From contig CM000150.2 of assembly GCA_000004695.1 (NCBI GenBank), positions 1,952,001-2,016,000 on the forward strand: 64,000 nucleotides of DNA. The letters are read 5' to 3'. The DNA comes from Dictyostelium discoideum. Lineage: Eukaryota. This document shows positions 4,823-62,799 of this stretch, in pieces. Both the position numbers and the translations under genes were made by a program. Each line of letters opens with the position of its first letter. The stretch's first letter is position 1. Below the pieces are notes generated by a model. That model saw nothing but the letters and a program-made list of their open reading frames with translations, did no database searches and had not been told where the DNA came from.

Positions 4823-4849
4823 AATTTTTATACTTCCCTTCATATGTCA

Positions 4850-14465: not shown

Positions 14466-14562
<97 letters not shown>

Positions 14563-14573
14563 TTAATAATAAT

Positions 14574-14619
<46 letters not shown>

Positions 14620-14978: not shown

Positions 14979-15024
<46 letters not shown>

Positions 15025-18454: not shown

Positions 18455-18527
18455 GCCTGGATGGCTCAGTAGGCAGAGCGAGCGGCTGTTAACCGCTAGG
18501 TCCATGGTTCGATCCCATGTCTAGGCG
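18455..18527 (+). tRNA. tRNA-Asn (anticodon GTT), second copy.
   Basis: It is identical to the 73-nt sequence at 4750-4822. About 30 bp of upstream flank is similar in both loci. Confidence 0.9.
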
Positions 18528-18716
18528 ATATTTTTTTTAAGGTTTTTCCATTTAAAAAACAAAAAAAAAAAACCGAAAAAACAAAGAAATAAACGAGAAT
18601 TTATACATATAATAAATAAATCACTGTTATATCTTCACCGCCACATTCATTCCTCTTAATTTTACCCTTTTTTTGCTCAGTAAAGCAAGGGCTATCGTCC
18701 TATATACTTTTCAACA

Positions 18717-22900: not shown

Positions 22901-23748
22901 ATATTGGCAAGAAATATTCAGATCTACTTCTTACTTCGCACCAACAATCAATACAACTATTATGGAAATACACATACGACCAACTTTTTGTCAAAATTCA
23001 AAAATTAAAAGATCCAAAAGGCCGAGATACAATGCAAAGATTCCATGCTAGATGTCTTCCGATTAATCATCTACACAACAAAGTTTGCCCCATTTGCAAC
23101 AATGAAATGAATAATGATCCCTATGGTCATTTGTTTTTCAATTGTCAGCACACAATCAACTTCATTAACCACGACAAATTAAAATATTTTATATATAAAA
23201 ATTGCAATGGAAACAAAAACTGGTCACTAACAAAAAACCAAACAACAAAATTATACACACTCATTTATAAACCACAAACAAACAACAAAGCATTTAAACC
23301 AGATCCAACTATCAATATTAATTTTCATTTTGCAGAAAACGCACAATATAAAAAATACAGGTTCAACTGGAATTATATAAACACAAATCTTGATCTAGTC
23401 AGAACACATGCATATTGGAACATAATCTCATTAGTTATTCACCAAATATGGATATGGTTATGCAAATCATTATTTGACATCAATATAACTCAATCAATTG
23501 ACAATTGGAACAACCAAATAAACAACACAACACTAGATTATGATATATTAAAATCAAAATGGCACAAGCTAATAAGATTGGAATATTCAAGAAGGTTATC
23601 AAACTTTAACCAATTCTCAATTAAAAACAACCTCACAAAAACTCAAAAAGAAACCCAATGGTCCGAAACCATCAAAAAATTTAAAAAAGAATGGAGCATA
23701 AACACTAATGAACCAATTCCAACAATTACACCACCAATTAATTATTAA
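19922..23748 (+). CDS. TRE3 ORF2: AP endonuclease + reverse transcriptase + C-terminal Cys/His domain. It is interrupted by a single 1-nt frameshift near 20681.
   Basis: Two ORFs (19922..20731 and 20671..23748) overlap in different frames. The sister copy reads attatCacctgg where this copy reads attatacctgg, giving continuous KHKKRWILSPGTANDHEA. Confidence 0.75.
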
Positions 23749-23892
23749 TTACCTAATCTAAAATAACATACTATTTTAAATTCACAAAAACTAAAAAACC
23801 TAAAATAAATAAATAAAAATAACATACTAGTTGTATACTACAATAGTTTATTTATATCAAAAAAAAAAAAAAAAAAGTTTTTCCATTTGTCG

Positions 23893-43196: not shown

Positions 43197-43559
43197 ATTT
43201 TATTGGCAATTTAACATTGAATAGATCATTTTCATCAGTAACCAATATTCTTTAAAAAAAAAAAAAAAAACAAGATCAAAATAAAAACAAAATTGTATAT
43301 AGTAATATCATAATAATAATAATAAATTTTTAAATTCCTACTTTGCATCATAATTTTCTTTATTTTTATTTTAAATATTAACTTAAATATTGGATTTTTT
43401 TTAGTTATAATCGTTTTAAAAATGGGTAATTATTCAATATCCTTCCAATTTAATAAATTGCCCAATTCAATAGAATCGATAAAGACAATTATTGATTTCT
43501 ATTTTAAATTTTTTTCATAATTTTAGTTTTTTTCAATTTAAAAATTCATTTTCAAAAAT

Positions 43560-43631
43560 GGCTCCTTAGCATAGTGGTATTGCGCTTCCCTAGTAAGGAA
43601 GAGGTCATGAGTTCGATCCTCATAGGAGCCT
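43560..43631 (+). tRNA. tRNA-Thr (anticodon AGT), including a U discriminator.
   Basis: The acceptor is GGCTCCT/AGGAGCC. The anticodon stem CTTCC/GGAAG carries the loop CTAGTAA. The T-arm is ATGAG TTCGATC CTCAT. It is identical to the copy at 45247. Confidence 0.85.
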
Positions 43632-43672
43632 TTTTTTGAATAATCTTACAAAACCTAGGGATTTATTTTATT

Positions 43673-45196: not shown

Positions 45197-45246
45197 AAAA
45201 ATATATTTAGTTTTTTTTCTATTATTGATTTTTTTTTTTCAAAAAT

Positions 45247-45318
45247 GGCTCCTTAGCATAGTGGTATTGCGCTTCCCTAGTAAGGAAGAGGTCATGAGTT
45301 CGATCCTCATAGGAGCCT
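45247..45318 (+). tRNA. tRNA-Thr (anticodon AGT), second copy.
   Basis: It is identical to 43560-43631. The upstream TTCAAAAATGGCTCC context is shared. Confidence 0.85.
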
Positions 45319-45364
45319 TTTTTTGGTTTTGGAGAACCATACAAAACCAAATTCAAAAATGAAA

Positions 45365-48300
45365 CAAAAAAAACCTTAACAAAACAAAGAAATAAACGAG
45401 AATTTATACATATAATAAATAAATCACTGTTATATCTTCACCGCCACATTCATTCCTCTTAATTTTACCCTATTTTTGCTCAATAAAGCAAGGGCTATCG
45501 TCCTATATACTTTTCAACAATGGCTGATGATCACTCAACTGAATTACAGTTAAATCATACAGATAACAACACAACCAATACAAATAATACCTCCACAACC
45601 TCAACAACAAAAAACAAAAGTGCAAAAATCGACACACCTAAAAAACAAACCCCAACAAACCAATTCTCACTTAACAAAGGACTTGATAAAGTGTTACTTT
45701 AATCAACCATACATCCGTGAAGAATTAACCTCTAAAGATGACACAAGAATTCAACAAATTCACAAAAACATTCACAAACTCTTCGAAGATATACTGTCGC
45801 CATCAGCATTAAAAATAATTGGTGCAACTGCCTTCGTAAATTGCAACGTTGATAAATTAACTTCAATAATCAACCTTCAAAACCAACTTGAACTAAATAT
45901 CGACAAACTCAACTATAGATTCGAAATATCATCAAATGATTATGCAATCATTAAAACATTCATTCAAACGTACTCACCCAAACATGAAAACGATGCAATT
46001 ATAAACAACCTCACCAAATTCACCAGTTGTACATCAATTGAATCATTTACTGTCACATACTCATATGCTGTTGCGTTTAAAAGCTACATTATAACATCAT
46101 CTAATTGATCACACACAACATTGTTGATCAAAAGATCCAACAACCATCTGGTATCACAAGATATATCAAAGCTGCAACACGTAGTGTCACTTAACACAAA
46201 ATTCAACATGCAAAAAATGCAGATATGGCAACAACTATAAAAAATGCTCTCACAACCCAAATATTAACAAAAACAATCAACCACCAAAAAACAACATTAA
46301 CACCCCACCAATCAACGAAATTGCAAATTCCAATCGCAATAATAACCCACTTCAAAATAGTGGTTCAAAAGCTACACTAAATGAACCACTTGAAACCAAC
46401 AATCAATCCCAAAACAATAATGAAATTTCACACAAAAGTGATTCTTCAAATAATAATAACGGGAAAAACTCATTATCAATGAGCAATCCAACCGATCCAA
46501 CAATTGTACCACAAAAACCTCTACAATCCCAACCAAACAAACCAAGTGCACCAACTCCAAATACAATAAATACAAGAAGAAGCAGCAATGCCTTGACTAC
46601 ACAACCAGTCAATACTGGTGCAGCCAAACCTAAACACACTCAACAATTGATGGTAGAGCTATTTTAGCAGACATTATATTTCCAAATCAATTACCAATTG
46701 GTATTCTTGGAATTTACGCACCAGCATCAAATAATACCATCAAAAAGAATTCATATGCAACTTCACTACAAACACTTCTCCACAACCACTCAACAAACCC
46801 AATACCAAACCAATCCCAACATGTATCTATTATCGCAGGAGATTTCAACTGTATCCACAACGACAATTCACTATTAGATGATATTATCCAATCCTACACA
46901 TACCAACACCATCTAATTGATCAAGGTGAATTTAAAAACCTCATACACATGGCAACAGATTAGATAGAATATATACTCAATACAATAGAATAGACCCTGT
47001 ATTCAGCGATGCATTGTTCTTCAAGATGTTTGAATTTTGCTGCTTTTTCTAATAGTATTTGTTTTGCAAGTTGAGTTTGTTTGTCTTTGTTATATTGATA
47101 GTTTTTTAGAGTTTTAATAATTTTTGATTTTACTTTTGACCAATTTGTAAATTGATTGATTGATGTGTTATTGTGATTATTTATTAAATGATTGATAATA
47201 TTGATCGCTTCATGGTCATTTGCAGTACCAGGTGATAATATCCATCTTTTCTTATGTTTATTTATTTGAAAAGGTGAAGAAATTGTTGTTGATATTGGAT
47301 TATGATCTGATAATGAAGATGGAATTTGATGGACTTGTGTATATATGTAACAAAAACAAATTACATCAAAACCACACAAACATATTAAAAAAACATATAA
47401 ATGGAGAAATACCTAGCAAGTATCTATCAGCAATACTAAACAAAAGATCAAAAGATGCAAAAATTGAATCAGTCCAATATGATAACATCATTACATCCGA
47501 TCCCGACCAAATTGAAAATGCGTTTGTTGAATTCTACACAAATCTATATAGCTTACAAATATGTTGTCCAATTACTCACCAGCTCATGCTAAACACATGG
47601 CCCATCATAAAAAAGAATATTGGATGGTTTAGACTCACCATTTATACAAGATGAAGTTGAAGCTGCAATTAAAGACCAAGTTAAACCCATTCTCACTACA
47701 TTATTCAACGATATACTAGAAAATCCTCACCACATCACAACAGAATTCACCGAAGGTCTTATACACACAATATACTAGAAAGGCAACCCCTTACTCATAT
47801 CAAATCGTCGTCCCATTACACTTCTAAACACTGATTACAAAATCCTCTCAAAAGTAATCAATGCACGTCTTCTGAGAATACTTCCTTTCATCATCAACAA
47901 CAACCAAACTGGTTTCGTACCCCACTGACTCATCATAGACAACATCATCAACATCAATGAATTAATCAACTACCTCTAATCTAAAAACCTCCCTGGTATC
48001 ATCACACTATTTGACTTCTTTAAAGCATTTGATTCTATCTCTCACGATAGTATTAAAAGAACATTAATTCATATTGGTATACCAATAAAATTAATAAATT
48101 TAATCCACAAGCTATTATCTGACTCATTAGCAAAAATTTCAATTAATGGTAAAACGACCAGAAAATTCGATATTATAAGAGGTGTAAAACAAGGTGACCC
48201 AATCTCAGCCACTTTATTTGTAATTGTAATTGAAATATTAGCAAGAACAATAAATGCAGACAATACAATAATTGGATTACCAATTTCACCCAATCCACAA

Positions 48301-49535
48301 ATTAAAATCAAATTTACCCAATTTGCAGACGACTCTACAACATACAACATCAACTACGAACAACAACAATCAATCAAACATTTCGATAATTTCTTCAACA
48401 TCATCATTAAATTTTGACAAAAGTGCAATAATAGAAATCGACCCCCACAAAATCACTGATAAACACATAATAAACAACATTCCATAATCAAAAAGAATAC
48501 CAATAACCAAAAAAGATCAATCAGAAAGAGTCCTTGGCTATTTCTTTAATCATAATGGTTTACATAGGAAATTACCAGAAACAATGAAAACACTGATCAA
48601 ATCATTAGTACTATGGTAAAACTAGTGGCACAACATTAAAAACAAAAACAACCATCATAAACACCTACTCACTATCACCAATAACATATTTATCATACCT
48701 TGAAGAATTTACAAAAGATGAAGAAATTCAAATTAATAAATTAATCTCATGGTTTATGAATTCTCCCGCAAATTCTGAATCACCAACTCTCAATACCAAT
48801 TCCATTGAAAACAACACATCAACCACGACAAATTAAAATATTTTATATATAAAAATTGCAATGGAAACAAAAACTGGTCACTAACAAAAAACCAAACAAC
48901 AAAATTAAACACACTCATTTATAAACCACAAACAAACAACAAAGCATTTAAACCAGATCCAACAATCAATATTAATTTTAATTTGCAGAAAACGCACAAT
49001 ATAAAATATACAGGTTCAACTGGAATTATATAAAAACAAATCTTGATCTAGTCAGAACACATGCATATTGGAACATAATCTCATTAGTTATTCACCAAAT
49101 ATGGATATGGTTATGCAAATCATTATTTGACATCAATATAACTCAATCAATTGACAATTGGAACAACCAAATAAACAACACAACACTAGATTATGATATA
49201 TTAAAATCAAAATGGCACAAGCTAATAAGATTGGAATATTCAAGAACATTATCAAACTTTAACCAATACTCAATTAAAAACAACCTCACAAAAACTCAAA
49301 AAGAAACCCAATGGTCCGAAACCATCAAAAAATTTAAAAAAGAATAGAGCATAAACACAAATGAACCAATTCCAACAATTACACCACCAATTAATTATTA
49401 ATTACCTAATCTAAAATAACATACCATATTAAATTCACAAAAACTAAAAAACCTAAAATAAATAAATAAAAATAACATACTAATTGTATACTACAATAGT
49501 TTATTTATATCAAAAAAAAAAAAAAAAAAAAAAAA
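45365..49535 (+). mobile_element. Degenerate TRE3 copy of the same subfamily as 18554-23876. It has multiple frameshifts/stops, a ~275-bp deletion, a 344-bp internal inversion (47000-47343) and a ~0.5-kb 3' deletion. It lies ~50 bp downstream of tRNA-Thr.
   Basis: It is collinear and highly similar to copy 1 from AACAAAGAAATAAACGAGAATTTATACATA to the poly(A). The ORF track shows ORF1/ORF2 broken into pieces, including a minus-strand piece (46960..47379). Confidence 0.8.
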
Positions 49536-50299: not shown

Positions 50300-50830
50300 T
50301 GGCTATCTCACAATGAAGACCAAGTGCGGATAGAATAGTTGAAAAGATATTTTAATGATTCTTATATTTTTTATTAAAATTATTTATTTGTTTTATTTAA
50401 AATAGTTGGTGGTTCAATTTGTTTTTTTCTTGTCCAATTTCATCATTTTCTTTTATCACATCACATAATCTAACAATTTTTCCATTTATATACTGAAGAT
50501 TTGTTAATAATTCGGTTCTTCCATTAAAAAATTTTTTTTGATAAAGTTGGTATATTCACTGAGGCTCATACCCTCCATTCCTTGACCAGAAACCATTTTG
50601 CAATCTTTAAAGTAACCTCTTGAGAATTTATAATGATTAAAAAGGATAATGTCAATTATTTTTACCATTTTTTCTTTACAATCGGCTGTGCACACATTAG
50701 GTTAAAACATTGGAAATTCATTTGGATCGGTTAATAACCATAGGTATTTATTCTTATCTTCCTCAGCTTCTTCAACGGAAAGATGTGGGCACTTATTATT
50801 AGCTCTATCTTTCATTATTTAAGTTGTGAC
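50300..50830 (-). pseudogene. Member of the small Cys-containing protein family (paralog of 57231..57689), with an in-frame stop. It is possibly a pseudogene or has an unrecognised intron.
   Basis: The sequence ...DPNEFPMF*PNVCTADCKEKMVKIIDII...FSRGYFKDC resembles ...DQDEFPKIQPGYCTEECKEKMKEIYRITFERY. Confidence 0.4.
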
Positions 50831-51313
50831 TATAAATATGTTTGTGTGATAATGTTTTATTTAATGCTAGTAAAAAATGTTAAAAAAAAATAATAATGAT
50901 AATTTAATTATTATTTAAAATTAAAAAAAAAAAAAAATAGAAAAAAACTTTTTTTTATGATGTTTTTTTTTGAAAATCAAAAATAAAAAAAACCAACACA
51001 AAAAACAACACCAACAGTTTTTTTCTATTTTTTTTTTACAAAAATAGAGACACAGGGAGTTTTTTTTCTTTTCTGCCATTACTTATTTTTTTAGTTTTTT
51101 TTTTAGAAATGCTAGGGTTACCTTCAAACAATAAAAATATTTATTTAATGTATATTTTTATTTATTTTTTTATTTATTTTTATTTTTTTTTTTGAATATA
51201 TAAATACATTTCTTTTTTTTTCATCAAAATAACAAAAAAAAAAAAAATGAAAAAACTATATAGATTATTATTATTCTAATAATTTTTTTATTATAAACAA
51301 AGGGGAGGCATAA

Positions 51314-52460
51314 ATGAGAAGATTGACATCTGCTTTCTATGATCCTCCAGCTTACCCCCATCCTCATACTGGATATCCCATGGGTTTGTTTGCCGGCAAG
51401 AGATAAAGATCAAATTTGTCAAGCACCCGGTATTTATATTTATTTCTCAAATACTCCACGACCTTATCCACCACGATTGGTTTCTCACCCAGTTACACAA
51501 CCTGTTTATTCGATTGGAAAATCAATTAATGATATTAGAAGTAGGGTTAAGGTCCATAGTGAAGATGATTTCCCCCATTTGATTAACACCCTAATGGTTT
51601 GCTAATGAGGTTCCCATGTAATAATGAACGTTCTGATAGTAGACCAAGTTTTTCTGAAGTAGCGTTATTAACAATGTTTGCAACCATTAAAAACTACATT
51701 TTAGGTGTCAAAGATAGTGATATTATAGTTTTTGATGACAATGGAGAACCATTTGATATTTTAAGAACGTTTTATGGAGTTAATAATAATAATCCATTTC
51801 GTACTTCTATTCCTCTCATCCAAGCTAATGGAACTGCTAAATTTGGATTCGATCATATGGTTGATTCCACACTTTAACCATTAGCTCCTCCTTCCATAGA
51901 TGTTATCAATGACACTAAATCAATTTTCCCAATAGGTATTCTATATGAATGTGGAAAACTACTTGATGGAGATTATAGTAATTTTGGTCAAGAAGAATCT
52001 GCCAATGGGGTATGTAACCCATGCAATAGAAAAAAAGAAAGTGAAGAGAAAAAATCAAATCCAATCAAATTCAAAAATCCACCATTATCTTACCGTTTAG
52101 AAATTAGCAATAAGTTTAGTAATTTGGAATATCAAAATGCCAAAGAAAATGGTCTTCTAGGAAAAAGTCTAGTTGAAACAGAAAAGCCATCAAAGCCATC
52201 AAAAGTTGGTCTTTTCACTAGGTTTGGCCGTTGGTAAAGGTCTTTTTGTTCCAGAGAAAAAAAGTAATTCGCTTCCTGGCAAATTCAAAGATAGTAATAT
52301 TGAAATGGTAGAGGTAAATCCTGGAGAGGAACAAATAAGTGAAGCGGCGGGCGTTGAGCATAGTCAAATTAGATATAGAGGCACAAATTACTTTTTTGAA
52401 CTTGGAGAAGCTGCTGAAGAGGCTGCTATGATTATCATATCATATCTTTTTTAATTTCTT
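51314..52460 (+). pseudogene. Paralog of the secreted-protein gene at 63222, broken by frameshifts into three ORFs (51339.., 51599.., 52173..).
   Basis: The sequence TGYP(M/W)..C.AR.KDQICQAPGIYIYFSNTP matches TGYPWVCTRYLDDTKEVVQKECKHPGIYLIFVNSP at 63222. Three different frames are needed. Confidence 0.4.
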
Positions 52461-53125
52461 GCACCTCTTTTACGTGCAAAGTTACCAGGTTTGGGTATAT
52501 ATCATTGAGTTTCTTGTGCAGTTGCATAAGTTCTAATTGGCTCTTGTCTTTCTCTGTTTCTTTGCAATCGTCTTCTTTCACTTTCTTCTTGCATCAACCT
52601 TCTTCTTTCTTCTTGTCCGGCCAATCTTTGTTGTGTTTTTTTAATTTTTTTTAATTTTACCTTTTCAAGATCTGCTTCAATTTCTTTTTTTTGACGGGCA
52701 CCCATCGTTTTTTTTTAAAAAATAAACCTAATGATTTATACTTGGTTATATTTAATAGTTGAGAATTTTTATTTTATGACATTGGTTTTGAATTATTTTT
52801 AAAAAAATCATTTTAAATTTTCTTTGATTCATTACATTTTTATTTCTATCTAATGATTTTATATTAATGATCAATAGAAAATCCAATAGCCACATAGGAA
52901 TTCTATAGAAAATCACTGGGAAATTTTGGTTTGATTACCTTTATAATGGTTATTTTCTAAAGATTTTCTATAGAAAACCATTGGGTAAACAGTTGTTTCT
53001 ATAGGAAATCTTTAGAAAACAATCATTGGAAATCGTTGAATTTTTCCTTTTCTCAATTTTTTAATAGTTTTCTAATGGGTCACATCTATACCGTTATCTA
53101 TTGAAAACCATTCCAACAAAAAAAT
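52445..53125. repeat. Left arm of a ~650-bp inverted repeat. The partner is 56440-57057, ~95% identical. The left arm has an extra ~75-bp internal tandem duplication (TTCTATAGAAAA-CCATTGGG units).
   Basis: A reverse-complement comparison was done by eye. Both arms contain the small basic-protein gene. Confidence 0.8.
52502..52705 (-). CDS. Small basic coiled-coil protein (67 aa) encoded in the left IR arm.
   Basis: It reads MGARQKKEIEADLEKVKLKKIKKTQQRLAGQEERRRLMQEESERRRLQRNRERQEPIRTYATAQETQ. A near-identical paralog sits inverted at 56794. Confidence 0.5.
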   Translation of the reverse strand: MGARQKKEIEADLEKVKLKKIKKTQQRLAGQEERRRLMQEESERRRLQRNRERQEPIRTYATAQETQ

Positions 53126-54939
53126 CTAATGGATTTCGATAAAGCAATATTAAATTATAAAAAATAAAAAAAAAAAAACAATTCAAATAGATGGTTTCAT
53201 TAAAAGAATATTTTAAAAAAGATTAAGGTTTTTATTTTAAAGAATTTTTATATTGATTTCGTAAAGGAAATCATTAAATGTTTTTAAAAAATGGTTTTGA
53301 ATTAAATGATAGCTAAATATTTCTTTACCAAGCTTCTTCAGCTCAATCTTTAATGAGTTCATAACCTTCTTCTGCAGTGATTCTAATTCCATCACCTACT
53401 TCACGTGTAGTATTGCCGATACCATCACCTACATCATGTGCAGTATCACCCCATGCTCATATCTAGATGCATTATCGGAACTTGGAAAAAAAAAGGATTA
53501 TGAACATGGTTTTGATTTCTCTGTTGAATTAAATGAAGATGGTAGCCTTCCAGATTTTCCAAATACTTTAGATCATTAAAACTGATAAAAAAAAAAAAAA
53601 AAATTAAAAAAAAAAAATAAAGATCATTACATAAACAAAACCAATTAAGGTTTTATTTTTTTTATTTTTATTGTTATCATTTTTTTTTTTAATTTATTGG
53701 AATCAATTTGGTATTCGATTTCAGCAGCAGCAATATATTCTTTTTTGGTATTCATTATTTCATTTTAAAAAAAAAAAATTAATAAAACATTATTAATATT
53801 TTTTTTTTAAAAATAGTTTTTTTTTTTTTTTTGAAATAGAATTAAAAAAAAAATTTAAGGAACTGGGATATTATTAACCATTATTCTTTTAGTACATATT
53901 TTTTTAATGGTGATTTTTTTTCCTCTCAAAAAGGTGCTAGTTAAAAAAAAAAAAAAAATAAAAAAAAAAAAAAGAAAAGCATTGATTAAAAATTTCATTG
54001 CCATAAAAATTAAATTGTCTTAGTTGGCACCTGAGATATTTTTTTTTTTTAAAAAAAAAAATTTTTTGATTGATTGGAAGATATTTTTTTTTTTTCCTTT
54101 TTTTTTTTTGGTAATTATTAGACAACCACAAACTCAAAGAGAGATTTACACAATAATTTATGATATTGCTTGTCCACATATACCAGGTACGGAGAATCCA
54201 AAATCATCTTTTAAATTTATGGACAGGTCCCATCTTCTTTAGGTTTTAATGATGCATAAAGCATTGCAGTACTCTTGTATTTGTCAAAAGATTCTACCAA
54301 ATCGGAGATATATTCGGCCGTGCTGCCATCAGGAATCTCTAAATCAAAAAGTGGTTCATATGTTCTCCAATCATTTAAATCATCTGAGAAATTCATATTC
54401 CGTTGCTTTTTTATGTGAGTTTTACTTGTTTTTTTTTTTCAAATTTTCATTTTATTTTTTTTTTTTATTTTTTTTTTTTCCAAATAAAAAAAATGTTTTT
54501 CGAATTTTTATTTTATTTTATTTTTATTTTTTTTATTTTTTTATTCTTTTATTTTTGTAATGTTGATGAATGATTGAATTAAAAATATAATTTACAAAAT
54601 TTTAATAAACTTATTTTTTTCAAGTTTTATTTTTATTCTTATTTTTATTTTTTATTTTTTAATTTTTTTTTATTTTATTTTTTTTATTTTTATTTTTATT
54701 TTTTTTTTTATTTTTTTATTTATTTTTTTTATTTTATTTTTTTATTTTTTGTAATATTAATGAATAATTGAATTAAAAATAATATACAAAATATAAACTT
54801 ATTTTTTCAAGTTTTTATTTTTATTTTTTTCTTTTTTTCTTTTATTTTTTTTATTTTTTTTTTTTTATTTTTATTATCTTTTTTTATTATTTTATTTTTT
54901 ATTTTTTTTTCCATTTTTATGTATTTTCCTATTTTCTAT

Positions 54940-56261
54940 TTTAAATTTGATATTATGAAATTTTTCCACATTTCTAAATTAATATTATTTTTTTTGTTTA
55001 TTTTTATAAATTTTTGTAAATGTCAACGTTTTGTTGGTACTCTTCCTCCTCAAAGAATAAGTGAAATTGTTAATTTTCAATGGAATAATGATATTATGTT
55101 TATAAACAGAGGTAGAAACAGATGGCCGGATATAGAACCCTTTGATGGAAACGGAGTTTATTTCGTATTTAGGCGAATGTTCAAATCATAATGTTTCTTA
55201 GAAATTTTGAACCTCCTAAGGCTGTTCATATGGAAACTTGGTTTCTTTCTGTTTTTGGATGTCCTTATAATAGCATAATTGAAGGAGGTTTAGGTGTAGC
55301 AGCATCAGGATATGGTGCAGGTGGATGGGTTAACTTCTTTAACACTGCTGATAGACAAGATGTTGTTGACTATATTCTCACCGAGACCCTTACAAGACCT
55401 GCTGACTTTTTAGATCACCCAAATTATCCTCGTGCTCCATCAATCATCAGAAAAATAGATGAATGCGAGCAAAACCTCACAAACTTACAAAACCAAATGG
55501 TGAGCCAGCAAACTAATATTGCGGATCTTCAAACACAAAATACAAACCTACAAACTCAAGTGACTAATCTCCAGAATCAAGTAACAGATCTTCAAAATCA
55601 ACTCCAAACTCATCAAAGTGGAAATAACTTTATGGCTGAGACACTCATTTTGGCACTTCTCAAATACAATGGACCGAGTCTAATTGTTTCAAATCCACTT
55701 CTTCGTGGTTGGTATGAAGCAAGAAAAAATGGTGGTGGTGGTGGTGGCAAGTGTGGTATCGGTGGTGTTGGTGATGGTAAGAATGGTGACGGCAAAAACG
55801 GTGACGGTAAAAACGGTGCGGATGGTGCAGATGGTGCAGATGGTTAGTTAAAATCTGGCTGTACTTGTCCAGAAACCCCTCCCTGTCCAGTAGTAATTCC
55901 ATGCCCAGAGCCAGTGGTTTGTAATATAGCAAAAATTCAAATTCAATTGAATTCAACCATAAAAAGTTTGGATGAATGCAAAAAACAAAAGGACCAAACC
56001 AATGATGACCTCAACGTCTGCAAGTCCCATAAAGATGAGATACAAGATTGGCTCACCGACTGTCAAAAAGAATATGTTAAACAAACAAGTCATTCATCCA
56101 AAGATGATACTCTAATTTCTCTCAGAAACTGCCAAGCCGAATACAGAAAAGAAACATTCAAAAAAGATAAGCTCTGCCGTGGTTTGTCCAAACATATCAT
56201 TGGTTATTTAGATTTCTGTGAAGATAAGGTAGAAAAGCTGAGACTCGCTAATTGTGAATAG
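54940..56261 (+). CDS. Secreted protein gene between the IR arms: signal peptide, N/Q/T heptad coiled coil, (GDGKN)n/(GAD)n Gly-rich segment, Cys-rich C-terminus. It has a probable intron at ~55165..55220 and an in-frame TAG at 55845.
   Basis: Three collinear + ORFs cover the region: 54919.., 55191.., 55914... The signal peptide is MKFFHISKLILFFLFIFINFCKC. The coiled coil reads LTNLQNQMVSQQTNIADLQTQNTNLQTQVTNLQNQVTDLQNQLQT. Confidence 0.5.
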
Positions 56262-56439
56262 TTTTCTCATTTTTTTAAAAAAAAAAAAACAAAAAAAAAA
56301 AAAATCATACAATGATTTCCCTTTATGAAATCAATAAAAAATTCTTTAAATAAAATTTTTAATCTTATTTTAAAAAAATTCTTTTAATGAAATCCATTAT
56401 TTTCATTTTTTATAATTTTATTGAACTTTATTGAAAATA

Positions 56440-57057
56440 ATTAGATATTGTTATTTCCAATGGTTTTAGATTGATAACGGTATAGATGTGACCATTACAT
56501 AGAAAACTATTAAAAATTGAGCCAAAGAAAAATCAACGATTTTTAATGGTTGTTCAAAGATTTCCTATAGAAACCATTATTTACCCTATGATTCTCTATA
56601 GAATTCCTAGCTAATGGATTTTCCAATGACCATTAATATAAAATCATTAGAAAGAAACAAAAATGTAACGAATCAAAGAAAATTTAAAATGATTTTTTTA
56701 AAAATAATTCAAAACCAATGTCATAAAATAAAAATTCTCAATTATTAAATATAAACATGTATAAATCATTAGGTTTATTTTTAAAAAAAAACGATGGGTC
56801 CCCGACAAAAAAAAGAAATTGAAGCAGATCCTGAAACGGTCAAATTAATTAAAATTAAAAAAGCACAACAAAGAATGGCTGAACAAGAAGAAAGAAGAAG
56901 GTTGATGCAAGAAGAAAGTGAAAGAAGACGATTGCAAAGAAACAGAGAAAGACAAGAGCCAATTAGAACTTATGCAACTGCACAAGAAGCTCAAAGATAT
57001 ATACCCAAACCTGGTAACTTTGCACGTAAAAGAGGTGCAAGAAATTAAAAAAAGAAA
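56440..57057. repeat. Right arm of the inverted repeat (partner 52445-53125).
   Basis: Landmark matches include ATAACGGTATAGATGTGACC vs GGGTCACATCTATACCGTTAT. The coding segments correspond. Confidence 0.8.
56794..57048 (+). CDS. Small basic coiled-coil protein (84 aa) encoded in the right IR arm.
   Basis: It reads MGPRQKKEIEADPETVKLIKIKKAQQRMAEQEERRRLMQEESERRRLQRNRERQEPIRTYATAQEAQRYIPKPGNFARKRGARN. Confidence 0.5.
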   Translation: MGPRQKKEIEADPETVKLIKIKKAQQRMAEQEERRRLMQEESERRRLQRNRERQEPIRTYATAQEAQRYIPKPGNFARKRGARN

Positions 57058-57230
57058 AAAATAAAAATAATTAAAAGAAATAAAAAAAAAAAAAAAAATT
57101 AAAAATTAAAAATTTAAAAAAAAAAAAATAAACTAGATCTCTTATATAAGAGTTATAAAAAAAAAAATAAAAGTAAAATAAAATAAAAAAATTTAAAACA
57201 GTTCTTTTTATTTAATTAACACTTTTTTTT

Positions 57231-57689
57231 CTATTCATCTTCTTCAGAATCAGGTAGGTTTTTTGCATCAAAATCACATTGTACACCAGGTGGCAATTCA
57301 CATAATCTAACAGGCTTTCCATCTTTAATACCAACTTTCATTGCTTTTATGACCATTCTAGCATATTCATCTTGGGGAGAGATAGGGGGTGGAGTACTGA
57401 AAAATTCTCGATACATCCAAATATCACATCCTCGAGGATTTTTTCCCAAGTTATATTCAAAAATTCTGCTGTCACTGTAATATTTGTTTATAGTCTCAAT
57501 ATAACGTTCGAATGTTATTCTATAAATCTCCTTCATTTTTTCTTTACATTCCTCTGTGCAGTAACCAGGCTGAATCTTTGGAAACTCATCTTGATCTAGT
57601 AATTCATCAAGGTAAAGAGTGAAATCTTCACTTTTTTTAAGCTTTCTTAAAGAAAATTCATCATGTTGGCAACAATATTTACTTGTCAT
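57231..57689 (-). CDS. Small Cys-containing protein (152 aa), the intact member of a local paralog family.
   Basis: The ORF is complete. The conserved skeleton C..HD.FS..KLKK...EFP.I...C..ECK.KMKEIYRITFE.Y is shared with 50300-50830 and with the Tdd-4-split gene. It has an acidic tail. Confidence 0.55.
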   Translation of the reverse strand: MTSKYCCQHDEFSLRKLKKSEDFTLYLDELLDQDEFPKIQPGYCTEECKEKMKEIYRITFERYIETINKYYSDSRIFEYNLGKNPRGCDIWMYREFFSTPPPISPQDEYARMVIKAMKVGIKDGKPVRLCELPPGVQCDFDAKNLPDSEEDE

Positions 57690-57982
57690 TTTTATTTAAA
57701 ATTATACGTTATTAAATAAATAAAAAATAAATTAAAAAAAAAAATGGGTTAAAAATTGAAGTAAAAAAAAAAAAAATGAAAAAAAAATGAAAATAAAAAT
57801 TATTGACTTTTTTCCCACAGAAATGAGAAAAATAAATGAAATAAATAAAGACAAAAATAGAAAAAAAAAAACAAATTTTTTTAAAATGGGTGTAATTTTT
57901 ATATAATTTTTTATTTTTATTAATGGCTAATGGTGCGACAAGGGTAAGGGCTACAGTATGCAGTAATGGTGGCTATTCATCA

Positions 57983-58195: not shown

Positions 58196-58341
58196 TGTTG
58201 TAGGGAATTTTCCATAAAATTTCACTACAGTAGCGTAGTGAATTTTATTATTTAATTTCACTACAGTAGCGTAGTGAAAAAAAAAAATCACTGACCTTAA
58301 ATTTTTTTTTTTTTCAAAAAACAAATAAAGTTTATTAAATT
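58196..58341. repeat. Left TIR of the Tdd-4-like element.
   Basis: It is the reverse complement of 62654-62799, with 4 small differences over 146 bp. Confidence 0.85.
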
Positions 58342-58398
58342 GAAATTTTATTTTTTGTTTTAATTATTATTTTATTTATTTTTATTATAATTATTGTT

Positions 58399-58438
<40 letters not shown>

Positions 58439-58879
58439 CAATTTTTTTTTTTTAAATTTTTTTCAATTTTTATTTGTTTATTAAATTGTAATTTTATTTT
58501 TTGTTTTAATTATTATTTTATTTATTATTATTGTTAATTTTTTTTTTTTTTCAATTTTTTTTTTTTTAATTTATTTTTATTAATTTATTTTTATTAACTC
58601 CCTGAGTTGTTCAATTGCTTGATTTACCATATCACTGTAAACACTGCACACAATTGAATTTTTTCTAGCTTTGTTACCTCTGGTGCATTTGATGTTTTTG
58701 CATTTTCACAGCGAAGAAAAAACCACCTTTAAATTCGCTTTAAATTAAATTTAAATTTGCTTTAAAGTCCTGAATTAAAGCAATTTTAAAGGTAATTTTA
58801 AAGGTAATTTATAAGGTTACTTTAAAATCACCTTAAAAATTACCTTTAAAATTACCTTTAAAATTACCTTTTTAATGGC

Positions 58880-59035
58880 TTTAAAAGCGAGGTCCTGAGT
58901 TCGAAGCCGTTATTTAACGGATAAATTTTTTAAAATTTTTTTTTTAATTTTTCAAAAATTACCAAAAGGGATTCGATCCCCCGACCCTCTATCAAAGGGT
59001 AGTCTCATCAACCATTACACCATTTGATTGCTTTG
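58880..59035. other. tRNA-like remnants (T-arm/B-box-like GAGTTCGAAGCC and GGATTCGATCCC; a Gln/Ile-like D/anticodon segment on the minus strand) inside the Tdd-4-like element, flanked by 12-bp tandem repeats (ACCTTTAAAATT)n.
   Basis: Partial cloverleaf elements but no complete acceptor stem. The flanks 58740-58870 and 59120-59420 are degenerate direct repeats. Confidence 0.3.
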
Positions 59036-59974
59036 ATGAAAAATTTAAAAATGATAGAATATTTTATCCCCATTTTTTTTTTCTAAAATTAGATCTTTTT
59101 TATTAAAAACCTTAAATTTATGTTTAAAGGAAATTTAAATTCACTTTAAATCTACTTTAAATATACTTTAAATCCTATTTAAAATTAATTTAAAATAAAT
59201 TTTAAAGGTATTTTTAAATATCTTAAAAATTATCTTAAAAATTACCTTAAAAATTACCTTTAAAATCACCTTTAAAATCACCTTTAAAATTGCTTAAAAA
59301 TTTATTTTAAAGCAAATTTTAAAGGCATTTTTAAATATCTTAAAAATTACCTTAAAAATTACCTTAAAAATGAATTTTTTAAACGCGGCTTTAAATTCAA
59401 TTTAAATCCAATTTAAATCAACTTTTCTTTAAATTTGCTTTAAAGGTGCATTTTTCTTTGCTGTGTTCCTTTGTATACAAAAAAGTCCAAATATAATTCG
59501 TTTTCTATTACAGTTTTTACACAATGTTGGTGAAATTGTTTTGATTTTAATTCTAATGCTTCTAACATCATATTTGGATTTTTAACGATTAAAGCATCAC
59601 CACTATTTACATATAGTACTTTGGCTGCTTTTTCGAGGAATTTAGTCAAATTTTCCTCTGAATCTAACTATTCTTCATTGCCATATTCAATGGCTAAATT
59701 TCTTAAGAGTTTTATCGAATCTATTAATTCTTCGATCATTCTTTTTTTTTGAAATTTTTTTTTATTTTGTTTTTTCAATTTTTTTTTTTTATTTTGTTTT
59801 TTCAATTTTTTTTAAGTTTTATTTTTTTTTATTTTTTTTTATTTTTTTTAACAAATGTAATTTTTTTTTATTTTTTTCAATTTTTTTTTTTTTTAATTTT
59901 TAATTTTTTTTTTTTTTTTTAATTTTTTGTGTTGATTTGTGTTTTTTTTGTTTTTTTGATTTGGCCACTTGTTT

Positions 59975-60961
59975 TTATTTTCTAATTTCCCCATACCCCC
60001 TTCTATTAATTGCAACCAAATCAAGTTCTAATTTTTGTGTCCTTGTTAACTTTGTTTTTGCAACTTTTTTTGAAGGTATCACATTAACGATTTTTCCTAT
60101 TGATGGTGATTTGGAAGGTGATTTAAATGGTGATTTAAAAGGTGAATTGGAAGGTGATTTAAATGGTGAATTGGAAGGTGAAATGGATGGTGATTTGGAA
60201 GGTGATTTAAATGGTGATTTGGAAGGTGATTTAAATGGTGATTTAAATGGTGAATTGGAAGGTGAAATGGATGGTGATTTGAGAGGTGATTTGGATGGTT
60301 TAGAATGTGATTTTAAAGGAGGTTTATTAACAATTGGTATCTTATGAGGACGGCCTCTGAGACGTTTAACAGTTGTTACTATACCACTACCAGATTGTGG
60401 TATAGTATACGATGGTATTATTTGCACTTGAGGTATTGGTGGTACTATTTCTTTTAAATTCATATCCTTTCTCAAACAATTCATTAAATTTGGCGCTGTT
60501 GGATTATTATTTAAAAATGGGAGTATTTCTTCTTGTTCCATTTCATTATTGAGTTTGTGTTGAAATGGATTATCGTTAATGATAGGTGGAATATTTGATG
60601 GATTGTTAAGAGCATCTTCCAAAACCCTAAATGGATCATTTTGTGTTACCAATTGATGCAAGTTGAAATTGGATAAATCCTTACCAAGATTTTTAATAAA
60701 CTGAACCAGAAATTCAATAACTTTCCCATCATTATTTAAATAAAGACCAGAAGTAAAAGAATCAATATCTTTTTGTATGTTTGGCGATGTTCTAAAAATA
60801 TCAACTGTTGATTGTTTATAAAGAACCAACTTGTTACCTCCTACAAAACCAGAGTATAAACCTTTTTTTTGAAGGCTATTGATTCCATCTTCCAAAAATT
60901 CAAGTTTATAAAGTTGTTTAGTGTCTTCCTGTATTACCTTATGAATTTTACACAAAATCAA
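59975..60961 (-). CDS. Transposon-internal ORF (328 aa) with an AT-hook (RLRGRPHK) and 14 tandem SPxK/SPFK repeats, likely DNA-binding.
   Basis: The ORF is complete. The tail reads KSPLKSPSISPSNSPFKSPFKSPSKSP..., which is histone-H1-like SPKK. Confidence 0.5.
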   Translation of the reverse strand: MILCKIHKVIQEDTKQLYKLEFLEDGINSLQKKGLYSGFVGGNKLVLYKQSTVDIFRTSPNIQKDIDSFTSGLYLNNDGKVIEFLVQFIKNLGKDLSNFNLHQLVTQNDPFRVLEDALNNPSNIPPIINDNPFQHKLNNEMEQEEILPFLNNNPTAPNLMNCLRKDMNLKEIVPPIPQVQIIPSYTIPQSGSGIVTTVKRLRGRPHKIPIVNKPPLKSHSKPSKSPLKSPSISPSNSPFKSPFKSPSKSPFKSPSKSPSISPSNSPFKSPSNSPFKSPFKSPSKSPSIGKIVNVIPSKKVAKTKLTRTQKLELDLVAINRRGYGEIRK

Positions 60962-61031
60962 TATTTTCTATTAGAATTAAATATAAAATTTGTTAATTAT
61001 TACTGTTTCATATATTATTAATCTTTATGTT

Positions 61032-62268
61032 TTAATTACTTACATTATTTTTTTTAATTTCTAGAAAGAGTACAGTATCACCAACTTTCAATCCCTTTGG
61101 TGGTTTTGAATTCCATTGATTTTGGTAACTTGTGAGATTTTCAAGAATAATAGCTGTTCTTTCTTCTTTTGAAACATCTGAAACACCAATTGATTGAGAG
61201 TCTTGTTCTGATTGAACATTAATAAACAAAGGAACAATACCAACAGCTTGAGATGGTGTCATTTTAATTGTTCTTGTTTTTGTATTATTGTAATCATACA
61301 AAGCTTGTTTTAATAGTTCAGAAAGAGACCTAGAAGTACCATCAAGAAAACTAAAATTTATTTATAAATGATTAATTAATAAACATATCGATAATTTATA
61401 TTGTTCACAATATCATACTCTTGTTGTTTTAATTTTGAGATCCTCTCCTTGATAGTTCGATTCAATCTTTCTACCATACCTTGAGTTGTTGGTGTACGAG
61501 GAGCTCCATGTGCTGACTTGGAGCCTGGAAAAAGTTTTAGGAATTCTTTTTGGACTTTGTTTTTAAATTCACGTCCATTATCGCAGTGCCATACTTTCAC
61601 AGGTTTGCCAAAGTACGTGAGAGCCAAAAAATTGTATATGGGAACTGTTCTCTTTGTTGTCAAACATCTAAAAAATAAATGATAATTAAAATAAAAAAAG
61701 AAAACTAATAAATTAATAAATAAAAAATAAATACCTTCCAGTAGCAAATTTTGTAAAAGAATCTATGCATAGAATAATGTAAACAACATCGGTGTCGTAC
61801 GGTTGTACAGAGTCATATTGGATAAGATCATCTAGTTTAGTTAGTATCTTTTCATTATCATCATCGTATGTAACTTTTTCTTTATGTTCACCTTTAATTG
61901 ATGTTAAATCATAAACCAATCTTGAGTATTCCTCGGTATCTACAATTGGAGCAAAATCCTTTGTTATACCTATTAATTTATTTAAATTATTAAAAGAGTT
62001 TTAATATAAAAGTTACAAAACATCATATAAAAATGATTGATACCAAACCTTTTATTCTATTTCGTTGGCAAATGTCACACGTATCTACTGCATCAGATAC
62101 AAAAGAATACAATCCCATATTATAATATTTAGTCTTGTAGTTCCCATAGGTTGCATCTCTTCCTATATGACCTTTATGCATTTCTTCCCAGAGTGATACC
62201 ATTCTATAATCATTAATTACTTCTAAACACACTTCTTTTGATATATTTCTATCTCCGCCACAATTCAT
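61032..62268 (-). CDS. Retroviral-type (c-)integrase gene of the transposon. Exons in order: HHCC zinc finger (62023..62268), DDE core part 1 (61713..61919), DDE core part 2 (61376..61747), C-terminal GDTVLF domain (61032..61301). Intron boundaries are not resolved.
   Basis: The zinc finger is H-x2-H ... C-x2-C (HKGHIGRDATYG...CDICQRNR). The catalytic D's are DTDVVYIILCID and HCDNGREF. The catalytic E is PRTPTTQGMVERLNRTIKE. Confidence 0.7.
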
Positions 62269-62487
62269 GACTTTTTTTTCAATTCTAAATAATTTTTCTT
62301 TTCTGTTTCTGTTTTTTATTGGTCAGAATTTAAAAAATGATTGTGTTATTGTAAGGAAAAATATTTACTCATCATGTAAAAATTTATAATTTTTATGTTT
62401 AGTATTTTCAAAATTATTATCTTCAATAAATTTTAAATAATTTATAATTTCATTTATTTTATCTTGTTTCATTTTGGGAAAATGAAA

Positions 62488-62522
<35 letters not shown>

Positions 62523-62653
62523 TGTTGGGGAAAAAAAAAAAAAGTTTTGGCGCAAAAAAAAAAAAAAAAATAAAATAAAAAAAAAAAAAAATAAAATAAA
62601 AAAAAAAAAAAATAAAAAAACTTATATAGAACTAATAATCAAATAAAAGATAA

Positions 62654-62799
62654 TAATTTAATAAACTTTATTTGTTTTTTGAAAAAAAAAAAATTTAGGG
62701 TCAGTGATTTTTTTTTTTCACTACGCTACTGTAGTGAAATTAAATAATAAAATTCACTACGCTACTGTAGTGAAATTTTATTGAAAATTCCCTACAACA
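62654..62799. repeat. Right TIR of the Tdd-4-like element.
   Basis: As above. Confidence 0.85.

What the first reader, a model, noticed from the sequence alone, without database searches (positions are those of the whole stretch)
52445..57057. A 4.6-kb unit bounded by ~650-bp gene-bearing inverted repeats flanks a secreted coiled-coil/Gly-rich gene.
The two arms are ~95% identical in inverse orientation. Each encodes the same small Lys/Arg/Glu-rich coiled-coil protein on opposite strands. The arms differ by an internal 75-bp tandem duplication. The enclosed gene has a signal peptide, N/Q heptads, GDGKN collagen-like repeats and a Cys-rich tail. The architecture resembles a foldback/composite element or a recent inverted segmental duplication. 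Its 4613-bp size is coincidentally near the neighbouring Tdd-4-like element. It matches no element class I recognise.
Basis: seen in the sequence. Interest (0 to 1): 0.65.

Follow-up and report, generated by a model that had tools for sequence, protein, structure and literature searches.

The report
Inverted gene copies, not a transposon
The 4.6-kb "unit" is two oppositely oriented copies of a small slime-mould-specific gene, one of them an extra, damaged copy, around a decaying member of a repeated gene cluster; it is ordinary gene-family turnover, not a mobile element.

Summary
The window is Dictyostelium discoideum AX4 chromosome 1. The inverted repeat is real (52446-53285 vs 57054-56305) but differs from the description. 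It has a 487-bp core at 93% identity and a distal ~330 bp at about 80%. Each arm is one gene unit (promoter plus 84-codon CDS) of a species-group-specific family: DDB_G0268732 on the right (intact) and DDB_G0268726 on the left (premature stop).

Six related loci in three Dictyostelium species show a conserved block, SM(-) CARGO(+) ARM(+) G152(-), each with a single ARM downstream of the cargo. So the right arm is in the ancestral position. The left arm is an extra inverted copy inside 3.3 kb of DNA that paralogous blocks lack.

There is no target-site duplication, no transposase and no second copy of the unit. A genuine Tdd-4-like transposon next door shows sharp ends, a 5-bp duplication and an empty site. 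The "75-bp tandem duplication" is a ~67-bp deletion in the right arm. The enclosed secreted-protein gene is a pseudogene. Only the core of the arms shares recent ancestry (Fisher p = 1.6e-5), which points to gene conversion between old inverted paralogs.

Verdict: ordinary, low interest.

The parts
52446..53285 (-). Left arm: an extra, inverted copy of the ARM gene unit (about 580 bp of upstream region plus CDS). Homology ends 5-7 bp beyond the stop codon.
   Evidence: None of the other six blocks has an ARM unit at this position.
52451..52705 (-). ARM-left coding region (DDB_G0268726). The open frame is 52502-52705 (67 aa) because codon 68 is TGA (AGA in the right copy). The remaining 16 codons are still recognisable.
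56305..57054 (+). Right arm: the ARM gene unit in its ancestral position, colinear with cargo -> ARM -> G152 in L003, L004 and L006. It has lost segments of ~27 bp and ~67 bp that all other family members keep.
56794..57048 (+). ARM-right CDS, 84 aa, 100% identical to DDB_G0268732. Intact and under purifying selection (dN/dS 0.16-0.24 against L003/L004).
52447..52932 (-). High-identity core of the repeat (partner 57052-56571): CDS plus ~225 bp of proximal promoter. This is the only part where the two arms are each other's closest relatives, and it is the inferred gene-conversion tract.
54955..56261 (+). CARGO pseudogene (secreted, coiled-coil, Gly-rich, Cys-rich family). About 50 codons are missing with a frameshift near 55188, and TGG has become TAG at 55845-55847.
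54220..54396 (-). SM59: a truncated member (59 of ~115-118 aa) of the small gene transcribed divergently from CARGO in every block.
54108..54203 (+). N-terminal fragment (aa 3-34 of 152) of the 'Q152' gene that precedes SM in L003, L004 and L006. It abuts the truncated end of SM59; in L003 the missing parts of both genes adjoin, so I infer that a single deletion removed them.
53394..53692 (+). Weak SM-like remnant on the + strand (53394-53580) followed by an inverted copy of the SM 3' flank (53586-53692, 83-93% to L002-L006). This may be a relic of a larger inverted block copy.
   Evidence: The protein-level match is weak (E ~0.002-0.004 in 1.4 kb).
50350..53686 (.). 3.3 kb present in the window but absent from paralogous blocks L003 and L006, where the flanking sequences are contiguous. 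It contains a G152-like gene (-) at 50543-50761, a P460-like gene (+) at 51339-52454, the left arm and the SM-like remnant.
51339..52454 (+). Degenerate P460-like gene abutting the left arm. Its current stop codon lies inside the arm's homology and overlaps the ARM-left stop.
57231..57689 (-). G152: an intact 152-aa gene convergent with ARM-right. It is the conserved right-hand neighbour in all blocks that extend that far.

Best explanation
The two arms are inverted paralogous copies of one small gene unit, ARM: promoter plus an 84-codon CDS encoding a highly basic, single-helix protein found only in the D. discoideum species group.

The right copy (DDB_G0268732) is the resident member of a conserved, multi-copy gene block: Q152(+) SM(-) CARGO(+) ARM(+) G152(-) P460(+). 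The left copy (DDB_G0268726) is an extra copy in the opposite orientation. It lies within 3.3 kb of scrambled family-derived DNA upstream of the block and is decaying, with a premature stop and relaxed constraint.

The block it faces is itself a degenerating paralog: CARGO is a pseudogene, and SM and Q152 are truncated.

The ~93-94% identity of the arms is confined to a ~490-bp core (CDS plus proximal promoter). The best explanation for that is non-allelic gene conversion between old inverted paralogs, on top of the generally high conservation of the ARM CDS. Nothing moves as a unit. The 'cargo' is simply what lies between two family members.

Shown: the anatomy, the synteny, the absence of transposon hallmarks, the mosaic identity and the gene lesions. 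Inferred: the direction and mechanism of the copying event (DNA-level duplication or template switching with breakpoints in A/T tracts at gene-unit edges) and the gene conversion.
For: Identity: the arm protein is 100% DDB_G0268732 on a 4.92-Mb contig. The left copy is DDB_G0268726, and three more AX4 paralogs exist.

Synteny: tblastn, blastn and tblastx show the order SM(-) CARGO(+) ARM(+) G152(-) in L002, L003, L004, L005 (twice) and L006, with exactly one ARM per block, downstream of CARGO. A gene model fusing CARGO and ARM (P0017) confirms the adjacency. Nucleotide homology to L003 and L004 runs uninterrupted across the inner edge of the right arm (window 55709-56601 and 56643-57802).

Extra DNA: L003 and L006 are contiguous where the window carries 3.3 kb including the left arm.

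No mobility hallmarks: no TSD, no transposase-type domains and no subrepeats. The same tests are positive for the adjacent Tdd-4-like element: sharp termini, an exact 5-bp TSD (GTCAT) and an empty site in L005. TDD-4 features are taken from PMC2836005.

Mosaic: arm-to-arm mismatch is 19.3% distally vs 5.9% proximally (Fisher p = 1.6e-5). Eight other pairs give ratios of 1.1-1.8, p >= 0.12. Bootstrap support for (left, right) is 0.93-0.99 in the proximal promoter, 0.69-0.86 in the CDS and 0.13-0.17 in the distal part. The right CDS is closer to L003, L004 and L006 (96.1-96.7%) than to the left arm (94.9%).

Constraint: dN/dS is 0.16-0.24 for the right copy vs L003/L004 and 0.59 between the arms, and the left copy also has a nonsense codon.

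Decay of the block.
Against: I could not search the AX4 genome itself, so copy number rests on proteins (5 ARM paralogs) and on six loci from other assemblies. The neighbourhoods of DDB_G0277459 and DDB_G0295815 were not seen.

None of the compared loci is a demonstrated ortholog of the window's locus; no synteny was found outside the block. The only orthologous locus retrieved (L001/L007) is 99.7% identical and carries the same structure. So presence/absence polymorphism and the age of the left arm are not established.

The substitution counts behind dN/dS are small (3.5-9.5 per class). The distal alignment is AT-rich and gapped, which could inflate the apparent divergence.

Gene conversion is inferred from mosaicism and was not observed. 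An equally old duplication with a strongly constrained proximal promoter is not strictly excluded, although other paralog pairs show no such constraint.
Confidence: 0.82

Rival explanations
1. Relic of a larger head-to-head inverted duplication of the block: [ARM(-) CARGO(-) SM(+)] facing [SM(-) CARGO(+) ARM(+)]. The left CARGO and other parts were later deleted. The arms are then the outermost surviving genes of an old palindrome-like duplication. This variant is compatible with the main explanation and differs only in the original extent.
For: Immediately inside the left arm lie an SM-like remnant on the + strand (53394-53580; E ~0.002-0.004) and an inverted copy of the SM 3' flank (53586-53692; 83-93% to five loci). 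These have the orientation and order expected for an inverted block. Inverted pairs of whole blocks do occur in this family: L005 has two blocks tail-to-tail. The old age of the distal arm region fits an old event.
Against: No trace of CARGO sequence lies between 53285 and 53394. The genes to the left of the arm, G152-like(-) and P460-like(+), are in the direct orientation, not the inverted one expected. At least four separate deletions are needed. The SM-like protein match is weak.
Confidence: 0.3
2. A simple, recent, one-step inverted duplication of ~840 bp copied from the right arm, with no later exchange.
For: The arms group together in the proximal promoter and, less strongly, in the CDS. 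Both share N50/R53/Y60 against the other AX4 paralogs. The breakpoints coincide with the edges of one gene unit.
Against: The distal 290 aligned bp differ by 19.3%, as much as between paralogs of different species and 3.25 times the proximal value (p = 1.6e-5). There is no such contrast in other pairs. In the distal segment the right arm groups with the D. dimigraforme copies (0.79 bootstrap) and not with the left arm (0.13-0.17). The core itself is 6-7% diverged, so the event is not recent.
Confidence: 0.1
3. A mobile element: a foldback-type or composite transposon whose gene-bearing inverted arms mobilise the enclosed genes.
For: Long inverted repeats bound a 4.6-kb segment, a size similar to the neighbouring Tdd-4-like element (4604 bp). 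The ARM family is multi-copy and lineage-restricted.
Against: There is no TSD, and there are no transposase, RT or recombinase domains. The arm ends are gene-unit edges and not defined termini. The right arm and the 'cargo' are colinear with six non-IR blocks. The arms are unequal and mosaic. The unit was not seen elsewhere. The size match is coincidental, since there is no sequence similarity between the two units.
Confidence: 0.02
4. A regulatory inverted repeat. Transcription through the left arm from the convergent P460-like gene, or one long transcript spanning both arms, yields antisense or hairpin RNA. That RNA would feed the Dictyostelium RNAi machinery and dampen the ARM family.
For: The geometry permits it. 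The P460-like ORF (+) runs directly into ARM-left (-) with overlapping stop codons. The core is 93% complementary over 487 nt. Pseudogene-derived antisense and siRNA are known in other eukaryotes (general knowledge, not tested here).
Against: There are no expression or small-RNA data. The P460-like gene is itself degenerate. The structure needs no function to explain it. No known RNA family matches the region.
Confidence: 0.05

Closest known systems
Local inverted gene duplication, i.e. inverted paralog pairs with non-allelic gene conversion in clustered multigene families
   Same: One copy sits in the ancestral syntenic position and the other is inverted nearby. There is no TSD. One copy is decaying. 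Identity is mosaic, with a homogenised core. The surrounding cluster shows deletions, pseudogenes and transposon insertions.
   Different: Nothing essential differs. The unusual detail is how exactly the copied segment matches one gene unit, from about 45 bp after the upstream gene's stop to about 6 bp after its own stop.
TDD-4 / TDD-5 (Ginger2/Tdd) cut-and-paste transposons of D. discoideum
   Same: Similar overall size (4.6 kb against 3.8 kb for the reference, and 4604 bp for the copy at 58196-62799) and inverted repeats of a few hundred bp.
   Different: TDD-4 has defined termini, a 5-bp TSD and an integrase-like transposase (PMC2836005). The neighbouring copy shows all three. The unit under study shows none.
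Foldback (FB) elements
   Same: Long inverted terminal repeats enclose unrelated DNA.
   Different: FB arms are built of short tandem subrepeats, are non-coding, are multi-copy and are flanked by TSDs (general knowledge). Here each arm is a single-copy gene unit without subrepeats, and there is no TSD.
DIRS-1 retroelement of D. discoideum
   Same: About 4.8 kb with inverted terminal repeats of about 330 bp (general knowledge).
   Different: DIRS-1 encodes Gag, RT/RNase H and a tyrosine recombinase. No such domains are present here.

Membership tests
Inverted paralog pair (local inverted gene duplication) | Both arms are homologous to a complete gene unit that exists on its own elsewhere in the family | tested here: met
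   ARM units with the same promoter-plus-CDS extent are present in L002-L006.
Inverted paralog pair (local inverted gene duplication) | One copy is in the conserved syntenic position, and the extra copy is absent from related blocks | tested here: met
   Right arm colinear with CARGO->ARM->G152 in L003, L004 and L006; same gene order, with a partly degraded ARM, in L002 and both L005 blocks. No ARM upstream of SM in any of them. L003 and L006 are contiguous across the 3.3-kb insert site. These loci are paralogous, not proven orthologs.
Inverted paralog pair (local inverted gene duplication) | Absence of transposition footprints at the outer ends | tested here: met
   The longest flank match is 3 bp with +-8 bp slop, and 91% of random controls do at least as well.
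Non-allelic gene conversion between the arms | A discrete tract in which the two copies are each other's closest relatives, flanked by sequence with a different phylogeny | tested here: met
   Proximal promoter bootstrap 0.93-0.99 vs distal 0.13-0.17. Mismatch 5.9% vs 19.3%, p = 1.6e-5, specific to this pair. The conversion event itself is inferred.
TIR DNA transposon (TDD-4/Ginger2 type) | Target-site duplication (5 bp for TDD-4/5) | tested here: not met
   The positive control at 58196-62799 gives an exact GTCAT duplication.
TIR DNA transposon (TDD-4/Ginger2 type) | Encodes a DDE/integrase-type transposase | tested here: not met
   No Pfam family for ARM, CARGO_N, SM59, G152 or the abutting 93-aa ORF 52173-52454; only sub-threshold coiled-coil noise for the CARGO middle+C-terminal part.
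TIR DNA transposon (TDD-4/Ginger2 type) | Multiple copies of the whole element; empty sites in related sequences | tested here: not met
   The unit is absent from six related blocks. The related blocks contain the 'cargo' and right arm without the left arm, which is the opposite of an empty site. A whole-genome AX4 search was not possible.
Foldback element | Arms composed of tandem subrepeats | tested here: not met
   TRF finds only a 10-bp x2.3 T-rich repeat within the arms.
Composite transposon | Each arm is itself an autonomous insertion sequence or transposon | tested here: not met
   Each arm encodes an 84-aa basic helical protein with no transposase homology.
DIRS-1-like retroelement | Internal RT/RNase H and tyrosine recombinase ORFs | tested here: not met
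   No such Pfam hits in the enclosed ORFs.
Hairpin/antisense RNA locus | Transcripts spanning an arm in antisense, or both arms; small RNAs mapping to the arms | not testable with these tools
   No expression data were available. The Rfam scan was negative.

The most novel reading that the evidence does not exclude
The interesting object may be the conserved, multi-copy block rather than the inverted repeat. The block is Q152-SM-CARGO-ARM-G152-P460. It encodes a secreted protein whose N-terminal half is hypervariable between copies (about 37-52% aa identity). Its Gly-rich/Cys-rich C-terminus and the downstream ARM and G152 genes stay at 82-97% aa identity (84-94% at DNA level, intergenic DNA included) across chromosomes and species.

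That pattern, with a sharp boundary near 55709, a mosaic of nearest relatives and inverted block pairs, would fit a concertedly evolving cassette under diversifying selection. Examples would be a self/non-self, antagonism or toxin-antidote-like system. The inverted ARM copy could then be a by-product, or an antisense regulator, of frequent inter-copy recombination. My evidence neither supports nor excludes a function of this kind.
Probability: 0.07. Interest if true: 0.55.

Novelty: new member of a known kind. Interest (0 to 1): 0.14.

Why it matters
It matters little beyond correct annotation. The analysis shows that an eye-catching IR-bounded "unit" in the AX4 reference is gene-family turnover and not a new mobile-element class. 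It shows that DDB_G0268726 is a truncated, probably non-functional duplicate of DDB_G0268732. It also shows that the enclosed secreted-protein gene is a pseudogene, which newer automated annotations rescue with a spurious intron (P0006).

It illustrates how to separate inverted paralogs from transposons, using a genuine neighbouring element as an internal control. As a by-product it flags a lineage-specific, mosaic-evolving multigene block that could repay study by people interested in rapidly evolving secreted proteins of social amoebae.

Tried and rejected
1. Fetching the AX4 paralog loci (DDB_G0275483, DDB_G0277459, DDB_G0295815, DDB_G0275481) by exact-protein lookup: none on record. The AX4 paralog neighbourhoods could therefore only be inferred from adjacent gene IDs (0275481/0275483).

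2. Literature search for the five gene IDs and for Dictyostelium inverted duplications in gene families: nothing relevant.

3. L001/L007 as an independent strain: it is 99.7% identical with the same lesions, so it says nothing about age.

4. L002 as a possible ortholog in strain ACTFIR: rejected, because it is only ~84% identical and has no flank synteny.

5. L006 as an ortholog, because its G152 is 97% identical: rejected for the ARM unit, since its proximal promoter is only 86.9% identical to the right arm.

6. The 'tandem duplication' reading of the arm length difference: rejected.

7. Retroposition of an mRNA as the source of the left arm: rejected, because the copy includes ~580 bp upstream of the ATG and ends 5-7 bp after the stop, with no poly(A) tail of its own.

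8. Remote homology for the ARM protein: Pfam is empty, and the exhaustive HMMER search finds only D. discoideum-group proteins.

9. Rfam scan of 50-59 kb: no hits.

10. The bacterial-type promoter/terminator scan is not meaningful for this eukaryote.

11. That one is an RT-bearing, tRNA-adjacent retroelement. The Tdd-4-like element is at 58196-62799.


Full report
ORGANISM AND LOCUS. The window is extremely AT-rich (about 15-35% GC, with poly-A/T intergenic tracts). The right-arm protein is 100% identical to DDB_G0268732 of Dictyostelium discoideum AX4, on a 4.92-Mb contig. The left-arm product is DDB_G0268726. A locus from another D. discoideum assembly (L001/L007) is 99.7% identical over 13.5 kb and has the same structure.

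THE OBSERVATION. The inverted repeat is real. BLAST of the left region against the reverse complement of the right gives two alignments: 52447-52932 vs 57052-56571 (487 bp, 93.0%) and 52966-53285 vs 56603-56300 (330 bp, 78.5%). The outermost homologous bases are C52446 and G57054, so the unit is 4609 bp with a 3019-bp spacer.

On the outside, homology stops 5-7 bp beyond the stop codon of the arm gene. On the inside it stops about 580 bp upstream of its ATG. In the right arm that inner end lies about 45 bp after the stop codon of the preceding gene. Each arm is therefore exactly one gene unit.

The arm protein is 84 aa, 54% K/R/E/Q, with net charge +11. AlphaFold2 predicts a single helix at residues 13-53 (pLDDT about 90-98) with disordered tails. 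The left copy has AGA->TGA at codon 68 and eight replacements.

The enclosed gene's described features are present, but the gene is broken. Compared with intact relatives it lacks about 50 codons and shifts frame after 'GNGVYFVF' (about 55188). The invariant Trp of 'DGWLKSGC' is TAG at 55845-55847.

WHAT THE ARMS AND THE 'CARGO' ARE. The arm protein has five AX4 paralogs. Only two are intact. An exhaustive HMMER search of 1.8 billion representatives finds it nowhere outside the D. discoideum group.

The closest AX4 relative of the cargo is DDB_G0275481, whose gene ID is adjacent to that of the ARM paralog DDB_G0275483. I fetched cargo-family loci from D. discoideum strain ACTFIR (L002, L003), D. 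cf. discoideum (L004, L006) and D. dimigraforme (L005). Mapping the window's proteins onto them shows one recurring order: SM(-), CARGO(+), ARM(+), G152(-). This is usually preceded by Q152(+) and followed by P460(+). L005 holds two such blocks tail-to-tail.

Every block has a single ARM, downstream of CARGO. One automated gene model even fuses CARGO and ARM (P0017). Nucleotide homology of the window to L003, L004 and L006 runs continuously from the cargo's Gly-rich region through the right arm into G152. It crosses the arm's inner boundary without a break.

So the right arm and the 'cargo' are ordinary neighbours in a conserved block, and the left arm is the odd one out. Where L003 and L006 read straight through (...GAAAAGATA / TTGGAATCAATTTG...), the window has 3.33 kb of extra DNA (50350-53686). 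That DNA holds a highly diverged G152-like gene, a P460-like gene whose stop codon now lies inside the arm, the left arm, and a weak SM-like remnant with an inverted SM 3' flank.

The block itself is decaying. CARGO is a pseudogene. SM is cut to 59 of about 118 residues and Q152 to residues 3-34, and the two truncated ends abut, so I infer one deletion.

MOBILE ELEMENT OR NOT. I searched for a target-site duplication while allowing +-8 bp uncertainty at each end. The best match is 3 bp, and 91% of random position pairs in the window do as well or better. No transposase, reverse transcriptase or recombinase domain is found in the tested ORFs. The arms contain no subrepeats. No Rfam family matches.

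The window supplies a positive control. The element at 58196-62799 (4604 bp) has 250-bp inverted termini (TGTTGTAGGG...CCCTACAACA), an exact 5-bp duplication (GTCAT) and an integrase-like gene. It also has an uninterrupted empty site in L005, and it splits a G152-family gene. These are the published hallmarks of TDD-4/TDD-5: TIRs of about 260-300 bp, a Gypsy-like integrase and a 5-bp TSD (PMC2836005). The unit under study shows none of them. Its similar size is a coincidence, since the two share no sequence.

HOW OLD, AND WHY 93%. I aligned the arm units of the window with those of L002-L006. First, the 'extra' ~67 bp of the left arm is present in all six other units, so the right arm has a deletion. 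It is flanked by the repeated motif TCTATAGAA. The right arm has a second deletion of about 27 bp.

Second, identity is mosaic, as the table shows.

| Segment | Left vs right arm | Either arm vs other units | Bootstrap for (left, right) |
|---|---|---|---|
| Distal ~290 aligned bp | 80.7% | 80-86% | 0.13-0.17 |
| Proximal ~200 aligned bp | 94.1% | 86-90% | 0.93-0.99 |
| CDS | 94.9% | right arm vs L003/L004/L006: 96.1-96.7% | 0.69-0.86 |

In the distal segment the right arm tends to group with the D. dimigraforme copies (bootstrap 0.79). The distal-to-proximal mismatch ratio for the arm pair is 3.25 (56/290 vs 12/202; Fisher p = 1.6e-5). Eight other pairs give 1.1-1.8 with p >= 0.12.

So much of the arms' similarity reflects the conservation of this gene family. 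Only a ~490-bp core shares recent ancestry. I interpret that as gene conversion between old inverted paralogs. Nei-Gojobori estimates fit a constrained right copy (dN/dS 0.16-0.24 vs L003/L004) and a relaxed left copy (0.59 between the arms, plus the stop codon). The counts are small.

MECHANISM. Shown: the anatomy, the synteny, the lack of transposition footprints, the mosaic identity and the pseudogenisation.

Inferred: a DNA-level copying event placed an inverted ARM unit upstream of the block. It was either a single-gene event or part of a larger head-to-head block duplication that later lost its CARGO. Retroposition is excluded because about 580 bp of promoter were copied. The breakpoints lie in A/T tracts at the edges of the gene unit. 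Oppositely oriented A- and T-runs there could offer microhomology for template switching, but that is speculation. Later gene conversion homogenised the core. The left copy then acquired a stop codon.

I could not resolve the single-gene scenario from the larger-block scenario. The inverted SM 3' flank next to the left arm favours the larger event. The absence of any CARGO trace, and the direct orientation of the genes to the left of the arm, argue against it.

LIMITS. The AX4 genome could not be searched as DNA. The compared blocks are paralogous, with no synteny outside the block. No expression data were available. The conclusion that this is not a mobile element is robust. The exact history is not.

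VERDICT. This is a real inverted repeat and the coordinates are accurate. It is an inverted pair of gene-family members around a degenerate copy of a conserved multigene block, not a new element class. Interest is low. The only mildly intriguing aspect is the block itself, which is lineage-specific and multi-copy. Its secreted protein has a hypervariable N-terminal half and a strongly conserved C-terminus, and its segments have different nearest relatives in different copies.

Noticed in passing
window 58196-62799: A genuine Tdd-4-like (Ginger2/Tdd) DNA transposon, 4604 bp. It has 250-bp inverted termini (89% identical), an exact 5-bp TSD (GTCAT) and integrase-like ORFs (e.g. 61376-61747, minus strand). 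It is inserted into a G152-family gene, whose halves lie at 63035-62826 and 58138-58019. The empty site is visible in L005 13381-13748. It is about 0.77 kb longer than the published 3.84-kb TDD-4.
   Followed up: yes
window 18550-23876 and 45351-49529 (tRNA genes at 18454-18528 and 45247-45318): Two ~97% identical copies of a degenerate, RT-bearing retroelement. Each starts just downstream of a tRNA gene (Asn-GTT, Thr-AGT), which is TRE3-like by position. The two copies differ by an internal 349-bp inversion (46998-47346 vs 20917-20570). The short tRNA-containing segments are themselves duplicated (43549-43638 = 45236-45325; 4709-4829 ~ 18413-18535).
   Followed up: partly
window 3805-4698: A tandem array with a ~199-bp period (98-99% identity between units), immediately upstream of tRNA-Asn at 4749-4823.
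   Followed up: no
window 54955-57689 compared with L003, L004, L005 and L006: Within the conserved block, similarity between paralogs changes abruptly near window 55709. The cargo's N-terminal half has no DNA-level match and only ~37-52% aa identity. From the Gly-rich repeats through the Cys-rich tail, the intergenic DNA, ARM and G152, identity is 84-94% at DNA level even between species. Different segments also have different nearest relatives (G152 is 97% aa to L006; the ARM distal promoter is closest to L005).
   Followed up: partly
L005 6784-21364 (D. dimigraforme): Two complete blocks lie tail-to-tail in inverted orientation: SM- CARGO+ ARM+ G152- ... G152+ ARM- CARGO- SM+. About 4.8 kb between them carries a DDE_Tnp_1/DDE_Tnp_4 transposase gene (13945-15318). 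DDE_Tnp_4 genes also lie within 10 kb of the blocks in L004 and L006. YqaJ-exonuclease genes recur near the blocks in L003, L005 and L006.
   Followed up: no
L001 10001-11071 (P0006); L006 10001-12051 (P0017); P0022: Automated gene models in the new Dictyostelium assemblies hide lesions. P0006 splices out the in-frame TAG of the cargo pseudogene. P0017 fuses CARGO to ARM. P0022 (ACTFIR_011878) fuses an ARM domain with a triplicated 'EPIRTYA' motif to an unrelated N-terminus.
   Followed up: partly
window 58773-59417 and 59975-60961: Inside the Tdd-4-like element there are 12-bp periodic repeats (TTTAAAGGTAAT-like, in both orientations). There is also a 328-aa minus-strand ORF with an SPSKSPFKSP-type repeat, which may account for the element's extra length relative to TDD-4.
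   Followed up: no
window 53340-53445 (minus strand): A short ORF fragment, 'GDTAHDVGDGIGNTTREVGDGIRITAEEGYELIKD*', just inside the left arm has no match in any fetched locus. The L001 annotation joins it to SM59 as an exon of a 114-aa model. Its origin is unexplained.
   Followed up: partly
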